Shown in pieces: positions 15,001 through 21,000 of a DNA stretch of 51,167 nucleotides. The stretch is from NCBI GenBank assembly GCA_038046645.1, contig JBBSVU010000006.1, positions 87,414 through 138,580 on the forward strand, read 5' to 3'. The DNA is from an archaeon. Its GTDB lineage: Archaea > Iainarchaeota > Iainarchaeia > Iainarchaeales > 0-14-0-20-34-12. A program made the position numbers. Each line of letters starts with the position of its first letter. The stretch's first letter is position 1.

Positions 15001-18000
15001 ATTTTTAAAAGTACCTAAAATAAATGTTGAAAAAGGTACCTTCATTCTGCCAAAAAATGTTTCATTTGATGATGCAACTTTTATAGAACCTTTGGGCTGT
15101 GTTGCCAGAGGCCAAAGATTAATAGATATTAAATCTGCAGAATCAGTACTTATTTTAGGCTCAGGGATTTCAGGCTTGCTGCACATAAAGCTTGCAAAAG
15201 CAATTGGAATAAAAAAGATATTTGCGACAGATATTTCCGATTACAGATTAAATGCAGCGAAGCAAGCAGGTGCAATCCCCTTAAATGCTAAGGAGAATAT
15301 TCCTGAGAAATTAAAGGTTATTAACAAAGGACTTTTGGCTGATAGGGTCATTGTTTGCACTGGTGCAAGCGCAGCAATTGAGCAAGCATTGAATTCAGTT
15401 GAAAGAGGCGGAACGATTTTATTTTTTGCAGTTCCTAAGCCTGAGGAAAAAACTTGCTTGTCACTAAGCAACCTTTGGAGGAACGAAATCACTTTAAAAA
15501 CAAGCTATGCTGCTTCCCCCCAAGACCTTAAGGAAGCCATTGTTCTGATTGAAAAAAAGAAAATAACCCTAAACGACCTGATTACACATACGCTGCCTTT
15601 ATCTGATGCACAAAAAGGATTCCATTTAGTCGCAAAAGCTGATGAATCAATAAAAGTAGTTCTGCATCCGCAAGAATAGCAAATTATTTTTATAAATATT
15701 CAGCTTTTTTATGCATTTTTAATGCTAGTTCAAATGCTTTATCACTGTTCTTTCCAAGTGCTAGAATTCCATGGTTCTTTATTGCAATGCAATTCTCTTT
15801 CCCAAGAACTTTTTTGATTTCCTTTGCCAATTCAATTGTCCCATATGGCTTTTCAACTTTTGTTTCTTTAACCCTGAGCTCTTTTGAATGCTTTAAAACC
15901 AAATCATCATGCAGATGCAGCACAACATTAATGTCTTTTCTTAATTCATAAGCAGCAGCATGCATAAAGCATTCAGAGCTTGGTTCTTTTAGGCCAATGA
16001 CTTTTACACTTTTTTTCTTCCAATCAGCAGATTTTACAAAAACAAGTTTTTTTCCATTTAGCTTTCCGATGCTTTCCTTTGTTGCATTTATCACAAAGCC
16101 GTTTTCTTTTCTGTAGCTTATATTTCCCCAGCCCATATCCCCATTAAGCTTATGCTCTGCGATTTTTTCCCCAATCTCAATTAGTTTTTTATTCAATTTT
16201 CCTTTATGGGCTTCTTTCTTTAAAAAAATAGTGTGAAATTTCACCCCAACATAGATTTCAGGCATTTTAATCATTTATTTTTTAAGAATCTTTTCCAATT
16301 CTTTTATTTCATTTGGTTTGAATATCCCTTTTTCGGTTATGAAAGCAGTAATATATTTGCTCAACGTAGTATCAAATGCAGGATTTTTCGCTTTTGCATT
16401 TTTATGGGATATTGCAACCTTTTCCATTCTTCCCTTATGCATTCCCTCAACATAGAGTACTTCATCTTGGCTTCTTTCTTCTATTGGAATTTCCTTTGAT
16501 TTCAAATCAAATGTTGATGTCGGGGCTGCAACATAGAAAGGAATGCCATTCTCTTTTGCAAGAACAGCTTTTTCATATGTGCCTATTTTGTTTGCAGTCA
16601 GGCCGTTATGCGTTAATATTCTATCAGCCCCAACAATGCACATATCAATCTCGCCCTTTTGCATATAATATCCGGCAGCATTGTCTGCAATAATTGCGTG
16701 CGGGATTCCTTCATTTTCAAGTTCCCAAGCAGTCAATCTAGCACCCTGCAATCTTGGCCTTGTTTCGTCCACAAATACAAACATTTTCTTGCCATTTCTT
16801 TTTGCTGCATATATTGGTGCAATTGCAGAACCCCAATCCACAAACCCTAGCCAGCCAGCATTGCAATGTGTCAGTATCCTAAAATTATTTTTAATTAACC
16901 TTTCACCATATTGCCCAATTTTTTTTCCAGAGTTTGCGTTTGCTTCAGCAAGCATTTCTGAATCTTCCAAAGCAGCCTTTTTTGCTTCCTCAAAATTATC
17001 TGCTTTTTTTATTGCTTCAAGTACATGGTCTACGCTATAAAACAAATCATATGCTGTCGGCCTTGTTGATTTCAAGGAATCAGCAGCATTTTTCACATAT
17101 TGCAAATAATTTTTCTCATTGGCTTCACAAACTGCTTGATAAACGCCATATGCTCCGCTTATTCCAATAGCACCAGCGCCCCTTACTGTCATATTCCTTA
17201 TTGCTTCCGCAGTTTCTTTGTAATTTTTCAGGGTTACAATTTCAAACTTATGGGGAATTCTCAATTGGTTTATCATTTTTACATTTCTGCCTTCAAGCCA
17301 CAATGTTTTGTAGTGTTTTAACCCTGAATTTGTTTTAACTAGCATTTTTTCACCATTTTTTATTGAGAAGGATGAAGTGTTCTATATGTAATGGTATCCA
17401 AGATATCATTCGAATTTAATAAAAATCCAACATATCTCTCAAATCCAATTCCATACCCTCCCCTTAAAAGTGGTTTTTCCTGTTCAAATAATCTAAAATA
17501 TTCCTTAAAAGGGGTTAAAACATCCTGCCCTTTCTTTTGTAGAAATTCAGCAATTTTTGAGTTTCTCAATTGCTGTTTTATTCTATTACCATTCTCTTCC
17601 CTTATGGCCCCACCTATAGTTTCCCCTAACTTTGGCATTAGTAAATCAACACTATAAACTCTTTTACCATCAGCTGTTCTTTTCATATTGAAGAATTTAA
17701 GTTCAGTAGGGAAGTAAGTAACAAAAGTAGGCACATTGTTAAATTCGTTTAGAATTTGTCTTTCCTCTGCTACACCAAAATCATCCCCAAAAGCATACTT
17801 TGTTTTAGTTCTGTTTAATAGTTTAATAGCATCATCATAGCCAATTTTCACAAATCGAGTCTTGGTTATTTTCTTTAAATAATTAATATTTCCTCCAAGT
17901 AATTTTAATTGTTTAGGGCATTTATTCAGAACTTTTTTAGTTACCTGTTTGATCACTTCTTCTTCCTCTTTAATTATTTTATCTAGTGCTTTTTCAGGAG

Positions 18001-21000
18001 ATATGCCTTCATAGGGCCTTTCTGGTTCAATAAGTGTAAATTCAGATAATCGTCTTCCTTTGGCTTCTGGATCATCATAATTTTCTTCCCTGAAGCTGTT
18101 ATTTACTGTAAAAACCCCACGCTTTAATCTTATTACCAATGCTTCTAATTGAAGTTGTGCGCTTTGTGATAAATGTGCTTCTCGTCCATAATAATTTAGT
18201 GTGAATGAAGCATAGGGGTTTTCACAGGAACCAGCAATGTTTACCAAAGATGAAGTTGTTACTTGAGTATATCCTTTATTTGCTAAACTGTTACAAAATT
18301 CACCTAATGCAATTCCCCTAATATCTAATAGGGCATTAAATTTCTCTTTACTGAATTTTCCCAAACCCGTGGCAATCATATCAGAGTCAGTCATTATTTT
18401 TCCCATTAATATATTCATTTTTCCTTAAATAATGTTTTTGTTCCATCCAAATCTTCCTTATTCCTCATTTCTTCCTTGCAGTTAGCACCACTTACAATAC
18501 TATATTCACAACCTAATTTTTCACAAATTTTTATTATTGCAGCATATTTTTGCATTATTGCTGCCTTGTTGTATGCATTTGAATTGAGTATTGCGGAAAT
18601 AGGCAATAAAATTTGAATCCCATTTATTTTGGCATTCATTATTGTTTCTTTATCTATTATCATCTGCGGATTTTTGTCAAATTGCAGCAGAATAAAATCA
18701 AATTTTTTGTTGCTTGCGGCAAAGCTGACATTTTTTAATGAATCACCAAGCATGCAAACAAAATCAGCAGCATTCCTGTAGCTTTCAAGTTCTTTGCCCT
18801 CTGTTTTTTCCATCAAATGGCAGATTTTTATTTCAAAATCAGGTTTCAATGAATTAATTTTCTCTCTTAATCTCTTGATATCATCTTTCGAAGAAAAAGA
18901 TTTTGCAATTATTATGTGTTTTAATTCTAATCTATTTGCTTGCCCAGAAATCTCTTGCAGATTGTCAAATAGAATTAAATCTGATTCCATATTGCAAATA
19001 GCTAGCTAGGCTATTAAAAATGTTATAAATGCTGCTTTTTTATTATTTGCCTTTTTTCTTAGCCCTTCCTTCTAAATCTGTTGCCTTAATCTTAAAACTA
19101 ATCGCCGCAACACCACCTAAATTAACCCTTTCAAATAATTGTGGTTTTTCTAACCTTGCATATACTGCATTTGCCCTATTCATTGGATTTGCTTTTCTGT
19201 AGTGAGTCACCAGTATGTTTGCTTTATTGCCAGAAATATTTGTAACTCTGCCCAAATCATCTCCGACAAGGACTATGCTGCCTTTTACTGCTATGTCCCA
19301 TTTTCCAATTTCAATCTCATTGAGTTGTATCATTTCTCTTTTAAGAATTTCAGCTAAAGCCCCTTTCCGTAATGGCTTTTCTTTTGTAACTTTTTTATCT
19401 ATAGCACCAAATCTACCATATGCCCTATCCCATCTTTTTAGTAATCCTGTTCCTTTAGGAGTAATAAATGTTCTAACCGTACTTTTCATTGGCCTATGCC
19501 TTAGTCTCATATATCCATCTCCAATGTTTGGGCCCACCCGGAGTCGAACCGAGCTCATCGCTACGTCAAAGCGATATCGTGCCGATGGACCATGAGCCCC
19601 GCCTTCTCTTTCTTTTAGAAAAAGAAAGAGAATCTAGGTTGCCAAGAGAAAGAAAACTAACTTTGGCAATATGATATTATTTTAGGCATCAGATTTAAAT
19701 AGGAAATTGTGTCAGAGTTTACTTCTTTATTCTAGCCAATTTCTCACAAACCTTGCAAATGTTCGTGCTTGCGGGTTCTCCGCATTGTTTGCATTGTTTC
19801 AATTTGAATTCAGAATAAACATCTTTTTGCAACATTCCCTTAATCCTTTCAAAAAAATTTATTGTGGAATATTTTGTTCCAGGATATGCTTTTTCCAACC
19901 TGTTTACTGTTTCCCTGTATTCATTCCTTTTTGCCTCATGGCTCAAAGGGCAGCATTCCCCCCCATAATATTTTATCCCAGCAAAGTTAGCAAATGCAAA
20001 CACTTCATTTTCAGGAATCTCATATAATGGCTTTACCCTAGGGATAAATTTTTCTGATTTGATAAATCCTGATTTTGCCCCTAACCTGATAAATAATTCT
20101 GGCTTATTATCACAAACATTCATCAATATGCTTTGGCATTCATCATCAAGGTTATGCCCAGTAACTAATTTGTCTGCCTTAATAGTTCTGGCATATTTGT
20201 TCATCAATTGCCTTCGCATAATTCCGCAGAAAGAGCAGGGATTTCCAATTGAAGAATCTTTCATTATTTTCTTTTGGATTTTTCCCATTGAAATGCCATA
20301 TTCCTCTTCAAATTTAATTACCTTATAATCAATGTTCCATACTTTGCAATTCTTTTTTGCAAATTCAATTGATTTATTCCTGTATCCTTTTATCCCCTCA
20401 TCAATCAACAGTGCTTTAATTTCACAGCTGTTTGAGAATATTTTATTTATCAAATATGCAGCTACTGAAGAATCCTTGCCGCCAGACATTGCCAATAAAA
20501 TCTTTTCTTTTGGCTTGATAAGTGAATATTTCCTTATGGTTTTCTTTACCCTTTTTTCAATAAGGTAAATAAAATGCATTTTGCAATAATGCTGCGGGCC
20601 GTAAAGAAGGCTTATTTCTGCCTTTTTTCCGCAGATTTCGCATTTTTTGCCTTCAATTACATTCCAATCTGTGGGTTTACAGCGCATAAAGAAACCTTTT
20701 AAAATACTGCACATGAGTATTTACTATTATAATAAAGGATATAAATATAAAAACAAAATGTAGTCCTTTACTATTTAGCAGAAGATAATAAAGTTTCAAA
20801 CTCAAAGTCTTTTGCTATAATATAAAGGTTAATTAAACACTATTTTGTTTATGTTTTTAATTGAGGGATTATTATGAACGGATATAAGCACATCCAGGAG
20901 ACCTTGCAAAAGGAATATAGTGGGGCAAAAGAAGCTGGAATAGATTACAAAAAAATTATGAGGGATAAGTTATTCCAGTTTAGAAATCAGGAAGAATCTA

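What a model noticed while it worked through the whole genome (the two positions that open the first line are those of the whole stretch)
17360..18418. Anticodon-less AsnRS paralogue distinct from AS-AR, shared by DPANN and CPR
Besides AsnRS and the archaeal asparagine synthetase AS-AR, the genome has a third class II enzyme (g00397) that is only an AsnRS-type catalytic domain. It belongs to a tightly conserved (60-70% identical) family of about 341 aa that occurs as a lone gene in DPANN archaea and CPR bacteria and probably ligates an amino acid to a partner other than tRNA.
Evidence so far: 369 homologues; the best 120 are 319-382 aa and 60-70% identical, with names from Aenigm-, Micr-, Pace-, Woesearchaeota and CPR. 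23% identity to AS-AR g00734 and 28% to AsnRS; motifs 2 and 3 are kept with a family-specific insert. It scores 59-66 bits on the best AS-AR models against 324 for g00734.
(Added by a program. Inside this text positions count along the whole contig: contig position 87,414 is position 1 of the stretch shown here. "Call 12" and the like, gene names such as g00115 and contig names such as C1 are that model's own, and its searches are not shown. The text may have been shortened before it was handed on; [...] marks where a part breaks off. The agent that wrote the report below was given it as the finding of a first reader that could run no searches.)

Follow-up and report, generated by a model that had tools for sequence, protein, structure and literature searches.

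The report
tRNA-free asparagine-activating enzyme family
This gene encodes a cut-down relative of the enzyme that loads asparagine onto tRNA; it has lost its tRNA-reading parts, and its wider relatives sit in pyrimidine operons, so the family may hold an undescribed one-step shortcut from asparagine into nucleotide synthesis.

Summary
Confirmed. Window 17360-18418(-) encodes an intact 352-aa stand-alone AsnRS-type catalytic domain, in addition to the genome's AsnRS and AS-AR. It is rare (2 of 215 genomes of its phylum) and sits in a five-gene block missing from a 94%-complete relative. It keeps AsnRS-type ATP and asparagine residues, lacks AS-AR's aspartate determinants, and has lost the tRNA-contact features. 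Two corrections: a divergent Lrp/AsnC or TrmB regulator precedes 12 of 25 family loci, and the family is one branch of a much larger AsnRS-derived clade found in archaea, CPR, other bacteria and phages. A sister branch sits beside pyrD/E/F (16 of 64 non-core loci; AsnRS 0 of 26) and is fused to a CarB-type MGS domain, PyrD and PyrE. Best reading: it adenylates asparagine without tRNA (about 0.75), possibly making dihydroorotate from Asn and CO2 (about 0.33 for this gene). Against: this branch is never beside pyr genes (0 of 25), 9 of 14 carriers have PyrB, and 8 of 14 non-core carriers lack pyrB/D/F. The scan noted the regulator cassette and the MGS-pyr link before, on other DNA. No activity is shown.

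The parts
17360..18418 (-). Stand-alone AsnRS-derived class IIb catalytic domain (P0001, 352 aa; the true start may be M5 or M9)
18215..18274 (-). Motif 1 and flipping loop (residues 49-68): motif-1 Pro replaced by Ser/Ala in this branch; G63-S-C65-E66-N67, with E66 equivalent to human AsnRS E279
   Evidence: PMC10831071 passages
18020..18097 (-). Motif 2 (residues 108-133): R110, E112, R122, F127, E131, E133 kept; acidic 4-residue-longer loop; His to Arg at 123 and Leu at 129
17684..17698 (-). Clade signature K241-F-F-N244-M (Asn where AsnRS has Tyr in 42 of 43; Met where AS-AR has Asp)
17531..17560 (-). About 10-residue helical insert shared by the whole stand-alone clade and absent from AsnRS
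   Evidence: segment 275-306: median 31-32 residues against 22
17435..17464 (-). Motif 3 (residues 319-328) with R328; His to Arg at 319 in this branch; no PR motif after it
13817..18418 (.). Five-gene accessory block (LsrF-like thiolase/aldolase, Zn alcohol dehydrogenase, class II aldolase, MtnA-like isomerase, this gene) lying between rpp30 and an HD-domain gene; those two genes are adjacent in relative G009. A functional link to the other four genes is not shown
   Evidence: these neighbours do not recur beside other family members

Best explanation
A catalytically intact, tRNA-independent enzyme descended from asparaginyl-tRNA synthetase. Step 1 (inferred from conserved residues, about 0.75): it binds ATP-Mg and L-asparagine and forms Asn-AMP plus PPi. 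Step 2 (inferred from the context of the sister branch and from chemistry, weaker): with no tRNA to accept it, the adenylate is resolved inside a capped active site. CO2/bicarbonate carboxylates the alpha-amine, the carbamate displaces AMP to give the N-carboxyanhydride, and the side-chain amide nitrogen opens it to close the six-membered ring of L-dihydroorotate. Net: Asn + CO2 + ATP -> dihydroorotate + AMP + PPi, a single-gene bypass of CarAB, PyrB and PyrC feeding PyrD/E/F. In this branch it would be an accessory entry, usually under an amino-acid-type regulator, alongside the normal pathway. Shown here: sequence, fold, phylogeny and gene context. Not shown: any activity.
For: Fold: best matches are AsnRS (Z 29.4 for 9sh9, rmsd 3.2 over 296 residues; Z 29.3 for 1x54) against AS-AR Z 23.3 (rmsd 3.1 over 260). 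R110, E112, R122, F127, E131, E133, K241 and D258 are present in 45 of 45 core sequences; E266, R273, S86, Q88, L91 and E92 in 44 of 45; E66 in 43 and R328 in 42 (the rest gaps, plus one Lys at 266). tRNA features are lost: no OB domain; motif-2 loop net charge -2.6 against +1.3 in AsnRS; PR kept in 1 of 41 against 38 of 40. The stand-alone proteins form one clade inside AsnRS (30 rows, 98/91 support; 205 rows, SH 96). pyrD/E/F lie within 1.5 kb in 11 of 24 MGS-clade and 5 of 40 other non-core clusters against 0 of 26 AsnRS clusters (after hand-correcting four labels; Fisher p 0.004; loci are not independent). Operons such as gene-pyrD-pyrK-pyrF-pyrE (L079) hold no carAB, pyrB or pyrC. Fusions to a CarB-type MGS domain, and to MGS-PyrD-PRTase. 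G350 and G727 (non-core) and G544 and G789 (core) have PyrD and PyrF but no CarB, PyrB or PyrC match. A phage-like contig carries gene-pyrF-pyrE. Aminoacyl adenylates convert rapidly to N-carboxyanhydrides with CO2 (PMC6462974 passages). All ring atoms of dihydroorotate are those of Asn plus CO2 (structure of the molecule).
Against: This branch has no pyr neighbour (0 of 25 clusters). The pyr-linked proteins tested fall in a separate 100/99 subclade that excludes it. It carries its own active-site changes (H123R, H319R, Q90, loss of the motif-1 Pro). 9 of 14 core carriers have PyrB, and the window's genome has CarB; its PyrB, PyrC, PyrE and PyrF were not found in an incomplete assembly. 8 of 14 non-core carriers have none of PyrB, PyrD or PyrF, including G269, a single 1.14-Mb contig. 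In the CPR sample only 2 of 7 carriers have PyrD against 103 of 294 non-carriers. PyrD without PyrB is common in CPR genomes that lack the gene (105 PyrD against 51 PyrB of 301), so that pattern is not diagnostic. 3 of 5 Eisenbacteria-type carriers have PyrB. L084 has an upstream fragment that I read as a PyrC C-terminus (recalled motif; no Pfam match). The flipping loop is unmodelled (pLDDT <50, residues 63-83). The step from Asn-NCA to dihydroorotate has no source among my searches.
Confidence: 0.33

Rival explanations
1. A tRNA-independent ligase that transfers activated Asn (or a similar amide amino acid) to an external acceptor, either a small molecule or a protein, as EpmA, GluQ and aa:CP ligases do. 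This branch would have diverged in function from the pyr-linked sister branch.
For: Adenylation residues are intact. Branch-specific changes (H123R, H319R, longer acidic loop) suggest a different second substrate. No pyr neighbours. Amino-acid permeases lie next to L007 and L034. Invariant C65 could carry an acyl group (inference).
Against: No partner gene recurs in 26 core loci other than regulators, a thioredoxin-like gene in 3 loci and one gene beside three near-identical copies. The gene moves alone between archaea and bacteria at 60-70% identity, which fits a self-contained small-molecule reaction better than a lineage-specific partner.
Confidence: 0.25
2. A second, independently evolved asparagine synthetase (Asp + NH3 + ATP -> Asn + AMP + PPi).
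For: Same domain architecture as AS-AR. A divergent Lrp/AsnC regulator precedes 10 of 25 clusters, and the genome's AS-AR also has an Lrp gene upstream. An Asn-shaped pocket would also bind the product.
Against: AS-AR determinants are missing: Lys at 91 is Leu, Asp at 131 is Glu, Gln at 129 is Leu, and the FYD Asp is Met (roles recalled). It scores 59-66 bits against cut-offs of 309-368. The genome already has AS-AR. This reading does not explain the pyr operons of the sister branch.
Confidence: 0.1
3. A different pyrimidine step: ATP-dependent cyclisation of N-carbamoyl-aspartate (a PyrC substitute, through beta-carboxyl adenylation), or formation of carbamoyl-aspartate rather than dihydroorotate.
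For: It would allow coexistence with CarB and PyrB (9 of 14 core carriers). The window's genome has CarB and PyrD but no PyrC match. Tyr to Asn at 244 could make room for a ureido group (inference).
Against: MGS-clade G350 lacks CarB and PyrB, so it has no source of carbamoyl-aspartate. Core carriers G178 and G217 have PyrC. The pocket is acidic and AsnRS-like (E92, E131, E133).
Confidence: 0.1
4. It still charges a tRNA, as an anticodon-blind or two-subunit synthetase.
For: The catalytic core is closest to AsnRS. Split aaRS forms exist (PMC11580382 passages). Phages carry members of the wider clade.
Against: Acidic motif-2 loop, lost PR motif and an extra helix. Full-length AsnRS is present in the same genomes (G000, G218, L024). 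The nearby OB-fold gene (12720-13076) has a hydrophobic N-terminal segment and belongs to the backbone, being present in G009, which lacks this gene.
Confidence: 0.07
5. An uncoupled adenylating enzyme or sensor: it makes Ap4A-type dinucleotides or aminosuccinimide, or acts as an amino-acid-sensing subunit like HisZ.
For: 8 of 14 non-core carriers have no pathway to use dihydroorotate. The HisZ precedent is in PMC9437257 passages. Ap4A synthesis by LysU and Asn cyclisation by MccB are recalled.
Against: HisZ lacks adenylation activity, whereas the ATP residues here are invariant. Fusion to an allosteric MGS domain at the head of operons fits a regulated pathway enzyme.
Confidence: 0.08

Closest known systems
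Asparaginyl-tRNA synthetase, archaeal/eukaryal type (P. horikoshii 1X54, T. thermophilus 9SH9, human 8H53)
   Same: Class IIb catalytic fold (Z 29), 27-28% identity, motifs 2 and 3, and the Asn/ATP residues E66, S86, Q88, E92, R110, E112, E131, E133, D258, E266, R273, R328.
   Different: No OB anticodon domain; acidic motif-2 loop; no C-terminal PR; about 10-residue insert; Tyr to Asn at 244 and His/Met to Leu at 129; far below the family cut-offs (177 against 414 bits).
Archaeal asparagine synthetase A (AS-AR; 3P8T, 3RL6)
   Same: Anticodon-less class IIb domain of about 300-350 aa; often near an Lrp/AsnC gene.
   Different: 22-24% identity and Z 23; lacks the Lys91, Asp131, Gln129 and FYD-Asp positions; a separate origin from within AsnRS (tree with a single, long-branched AS-AR outgroup).
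EpmA/PoxA, GluQ-RS, aa:CP ligases, HisZ (aaRS paralogues reviewed in PMC9437257)
   Same: Catalytic-domain-only aaRS paralogues repurposed outside translation.
   Different: They derive from LysRS, GluRS, SerRS and HisRS (recalled). P0001 has no EpmA match at E<=0.01, and no partner gene such as efp recurs nearby. The review passages I saw list no AsnRS-derived family other than AS-A/AS-AR.
CarAB-PyrB-PyrC upper pyrimidine pathway; TsaC-type carbamoyl-adenylate chemistry (recalled)
   Same: The proposed product (dihydroorotate) and the CarB-type MGS regulatory domain fused in the sister branch.
   Different: One enzyme, with asparagine as carbon and nitrogen donor and an unrelated fold; not demonstrated.

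Membership tests
AsnRS | N-terminal OB-fold anticodon-binding domain | tested here: not met
   PF00152 only, covering residues 23-345 of 352; the ORF is bounded upstream by rpp30
AsnRS | Score over NCBIfam cut-off (PRK03932 414; TIGR00457 342.6) | tested here: not met
   177 and 175 bits
AsnRS | Class II motifs 2/3 and Asn-adenylate residues | tested here: met
   E66, R110 and E112 map to human E279, R322 and E324 (counted by hand); roles of L91, E131 and R273 are recalled
AsnRS | Aminoacylation of tRNA-Asn | not testable with these tools
   needs an assay; sequence features argue against it
AS-AR / AsnA | Catalytic domain without anticodon domain | tested here: met
AS-AR / AsnA | Score over PRK06462 cut-offs | tested here: not met
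   66/368, 59/309, 47/389, 30/322 bits; the genome's own AS-AR scores 324/309
AS-AR / AsnA | Aspartate-binding residues (HKQ Lys, QxD, FYD Asp; roles recalled) | tested here: not met
   L91, L129, E131 and M245 in P0001; the Lys alignment shifts by one column in the larger alignment, and searches agree on position 91
AS-AR / AsnA | Asp + NH3 -> Asn activity | not testable with these tools
   needs an assay
EpmA (EF-P beta-lysine ligase) | LysRS-derived; TIGR00462 match; efp/epmB context | tested here: not met
   no TIGR00462 match for P0001 at E<=0.01; tree places it within AsnRS; no such neighbours cluster
Pyrimidine-operon-linked sister branch (undescribed) | Shared clade signature (GxCEN, QxxQL, L129, KFFNM, SxM/I insert) | tested here: met
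Pyrimidine-operon-linked sister branch (undescribed) | pyrD/E/F adjacency or MGS fusion | tested here: not met
   0 of 25 core clusters; separate subclade; a search for longer fused forms of P0001 itself could not be made

The most novel reading that the evidence does not exclude
The clade, including this gene, is an undescribed 'asparagine-dependent dihydroorotate synthase'. One AsnRS-derived enzyme would replace the three-step CarAB/PyrB/PyrC entry to de novo pyrimidine synthesis through an aminoacyl-adenylate and N-carboxyanhydride route, and would be spread as a single gene among DPANN archaea, CPR bacteria, other uncultured microbes and phages. I put this at about 0.5 for the MGS/pyr-linked branch and about 0.33 for this gene.
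Probability: 0.33. Interest if true: 0.92.

Novelty: new variant of a known kind. Interest (0 to 1): 0.72.

Why it matters
Repurposed aaRS catalytic domains have repeatedly revealed new biochemistry (AS-A, EpmA, GluQ). This is a large AsnRS-derived clade for which no curated family model was matched, and databases label members as AsnRS, hypothetical or 'amino acid--tRNA ligase-related'. If it makes dihydroorotate from asparagine, it would be a second route into de novo pyrimidine synthesis, which is usually treated as invariant. It would revise 'incomplete pathway' calls for some CPR/DPANN genomes, add a phage auxiliary gene, and give an enzymatic use of N-carboxyanhydride chemistry, which is discussed mainly in prebiotic work. 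One complementation test and one LC-MS assay can decide it.

Tried and rejected
Split synthetase with the nearby OB-fold gene: rejected, as it is a backbone gene also present in G009. Functional unit with the mtnA/aldolase/LsrF/ADH genes: same accessory block, but these neighbours do not recur at other loci. Strict replacement of PyrB by this branch: rejected (9 of 14 carriers have PyrB). Universal pyrimidine role for the whole clade: not supported (8 of 14 non-core carriers lack pyrB/D/F). Promoter/terminator scan: 17 sites against 15.1 expected by chance, uninformative. GC content: 0.32, inside the local range of 0.30-0.40. Annotated phage and plasmid collections: only weak matches of 36% identity or less, named AsnRS/AspRS where annotated, and no member recognised (25 of 48 and 25 of 80 plasmid records were listed). 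No core-family member was found in viral contigs (6 loci, all 33% or less). ESM Atlas: only PF00152 clusters with automatic names. Cluster look-up: 3 of 10 carried names, all generic synthetase labels. RNA data: no RNA holder listed. Literature: nine full-text searches listed no paper on this family or on an Asn-to-dihydroorotate enzyme; the library lacks most subscription journals. A search for longer fused forms of P0001 in the 90% database could not be made, so fusions are known only from the 50% representatives. No complex prediction was run.
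Full report
Observation. The ORF at window 17360-18418(-) gives 352 residues without a stop. Its only Pfam match is the class IIb catalytic domain PF00152, residues 23-345. The 1.17-Mb, 89%-complete genome has three such domains: this gene, an AsnRS and an AS-AR, both over their NCBIfam cut-offs. No AspRS was found, so absences in this assembly are weak evidence. P0001 scores 177 bits on AsnRS (cut-off 414) and 59-66 on the best AS-AR models (cut-offs 309-368). It is 27-28% identical to the AsnRS and 22-24% to the AS-AR. The 369 homologues and the 60-70% identity band are reproduced. The AlphaFold model (pLDDT 84.7; residues 63-83 unmodelled) matches AsnRS best: Z 29.4, rmsd 3.2 over 296 residues, against Z 23.3, rmsd 3.1 over 260 for AS-AR.

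An accessory gene. The core family occurs in 2 of 215 genomes of the window's phylum, including this one. In G009 (same family, 94% complete) rpp30 abuts the HD-domain gene, so the five genes at 13817-18418 fill a slot that is empty there. The other four genes (LsrF-like, Zn-ADH, class II aldolase, MtnA-like) do not recur beside other members. Besides DPANN and CPR records, members lie in an Alphaproteobacteria MAG and a 5.6-Mb bacterium. The neighbourhood is not random: an Lrp/AsnC-type (10) or TrmB-type (2) regulator lies within 1.5 kb in 12 of 25 clusters at 85% identity, against 0 of 26 AsnRS clusters. All 13 regulator genes checked are upstream and divergent, 12 of them at 85-168 nt. This window has no such regulator; the gene's first ATG overlaps the rpp30 stop codon.

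A larger clade. A profile search of 1.84 billion representatives returned dozens of 300-390-aa proteins scoring above full-length AsnRS. The lower-identity loci from the genome, metagenome and viral scans were of this kind as well (four loci gave no ORF hit in my caller). In a 249-row tree, 205 rows without an anticodon domain group together (SH 96), with the core family as a 52-row branch; I checked the six long proteins of this group for an OB domain by Pfam and judged the rest by length. In a 45-row IQ-TREE subset the 30 stand-alone rows have 98/91 support inside AsnRS, and the core has 100/99. Only one, long-branched AS-AR served as outgroup. Carriers were 7 of 301 genomes in the CPR sample and 9 of 261 in the sample around a Woesearchaeota genome (each count includes the chosen centre). 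Two more were found in the window's phylum, and members occur on phage contigs.

Active site. Across 45 core, 32 MGS-clade, 121 other stand-alone and 43 AsnRS sequences, the core keeps R110, E112, R122, F127, E131, E133, K241 and D258 in 45 of 45. It keeps S86, Q88, L91, E92, E266 and R273 in 44, E66 in 43 and R328 in 42. E66, R110 and E112 map by hand count onto human AsnRS E279, R322 and E324, which bind Asn-AMP (PMC10831071, passages). By my recall of the T. thermophilus and P. horikoshii structures, absence of the Lys at 91 together with Glu131 and Arg273 marks an amide (Asn) pocket. AS-AR has K91, Q129, D131 and an FYD Asp where P0001 has L, L, E and M. Clade-wide novelties are near-invariant G63 and C65, Q85, S108, L129, N244 (Tyr in 42 of 43 AsnRS) and an insert of about 10 residues. 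The motif-2 loop is acidic (mean -2.6; all 45 negative) where that of AsnRS is basic (+1.3), and the PR motif after motif 3 is kept in 1 of 41 against 38 of 40. I infer a live adenylating enzyme that no longer takes tRNA. This branch adds H123R, H319R, Q90 and loss of the motif-1 Pro.

The pyrimidine link. Clustering neighbours of the wider loci gave PyrD (14 loci), PyrE (13) and PyrF (11) as the top families (identities of the L079 genes confirmed). After de-duplication, pyrD/E/F lie within 1.5 kb in 11 of 24 MGS-clade and 5 of 40 other clusters, against 0 of 26 AsnRS and 0 of 25 core (I moved L080 and L095 to the MGS clade and L169 and L144 to AsnRS by hand; p 0.004, overstated by kinship). 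Several operons read gene-pyrD-(pyrK)-pyrF/E with no upper-pathway gene. Fusions add a CarB-type MGS domain, and in P0176 also PyrD and a PRTase. In G350 the adjacent ArgG carries the same MGS domain, as if it marks the first step of a shortened pathway (inference). G350, G727, G544 and G789 have PyrD and PyrF without CarB, PyrB or PyrC; the last two carry the core family. Dihydroorotate is Asn plus CO2 minus water, and aminoacyl adenylates become N-carboxyanhydrides rapidly with CO2 (PMC6462974, passages). Attack of the Asn amide on that anhydride would give dihydroorotate. That last step is my inference; I recall only a classical chemical cyclisation of N-carbethoxy-asparagine.

Against extending this to the window's gene. 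The pyr-linked proteins tested form a 100/99 subclade that excludes the core. 9 of 14 core carriers have PyrB, 10 have PyrD and 10 have PyrF, one of them partial. The window's genome has CarB, an ornithine carbamoyltransferase and PyrD/K; PyrB, PyrC, PyrE and PyrF were not found. Among 14 non-core carriers, 8 have none of PyrB, PyrD or PyrF, including G269, a single 1.14-Mb contig. 3 of 5 Eisenbacteria-type carriers have PyrB. Carriers are enriched for PyrD in the archaeal sample (7 of 9 against 93 of 252, p 0.03) but not in CPR (2 of 7 against 103 of 294). Core DPANN/CPR carriers have PyrD in 9 of 11 against 205 of 562 (I left out three carriers labelled otherwise, and genome size confounds it). 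The background tallies include one unpublished genome each (G371, G767); no other claim rests on them.

Prior knowledge. Nine full-text searches listed nothing on this family. I read passages only of PMC9437257, PMC11580382, PMC3532385, PMC6462974, PMC10831071 and bioRxiv 10.64898/2026.05.13.725050. None of those passages names an AsnRS-derived paralogue other than AS-A/AS-AR; supplements were not opened, and subscription journals are largely outside the library. Two earlier scan notes on other genomes agree. e1-805413 (TrmB cassette) I saw after noticing divergent regulators and before counting them. e1-4899770 (MGS fusion heading pyrD-E-F) I saw after finding the link. These are not independent support.

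Verdict. A real, conserved, apparently undescribed AsnRS-derived enzyme family that is neither AsnRS nor AS-AR. tRNA-independent adenylation of asparagine or a close amide is likely (about 0.75). The product is open: dihydroorotate is my best single guess (0.33 here, about 0.5 for the sister branch), ahead of ligation to an external acceptor (0.25). Interest 0.72.

Noticed in passing
window 13817-17345: An LsrF-like thiolase/aldolase (over the PRK08227 cut-off) and a Zn alcohol dehydrogenase face an MtnA-like isomerase and a class II aldolase. It looks like a sugar-phosphate or MTA/5'-deoxyadenosine salvage cassette and is absent from the same slot in G009.
   Followed up: partly
L148:6799-8406 (G350) and L094:333-1973: Argininosuccinate synthase fused to a CarB-type MGS domain next to the MGS-fused AsnRS-like gene in G350; L094 has a similarly long ArgG, not scanned. 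A cytosine-deaminase-like amidohydrolase (PRK06886) recurs in these CPR loci.
   Followed up: partly
L195:5962-8273; L202, L204, L196, L198, L199: Phage-like IMG/VR contigs carry members of the wider clade. One has gene-pyrF-pyrE and no pyrD match in 116 kb; two have an HPRT-like gene (read from sequence, not scanned) 3.5-5 kb upstream.
   Followed up: partly
G000 whole genome: No AspRS, PyrB, PyrC, PyrE or PyrF found although CarB, an ornithine carbamoyltransferase and PyrD/K are present; AsnRS and AS-AR lie 1.3 kb apart on C11.
   Followed up: partly
P0137, P0139, P0141, P0151: Apparently degenerate core-family proteins nest inside the core branch; P0137, the one I read, lacks the CEN loop and motif-2/3 arginines. 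Possibly non-catalytic derivatives.
   Followed up: no
window 19529-19599, 19043-19558, 21536-22012, 11066-11545: A tRNA-Val(GAC) gene 1.1 kb upstream of the gene, and three further ORFs (unknown, GNAT, MgtC-like by sequence) with no match in the syntenic G009 stretch.
   Followed up: no
CPR sample: PyrD matches (105 of 301) are twice as common as PyrB (51 of 301), so many CPR genomes have PyrD without the upper pathway and without this gene family.
   Followed up: no
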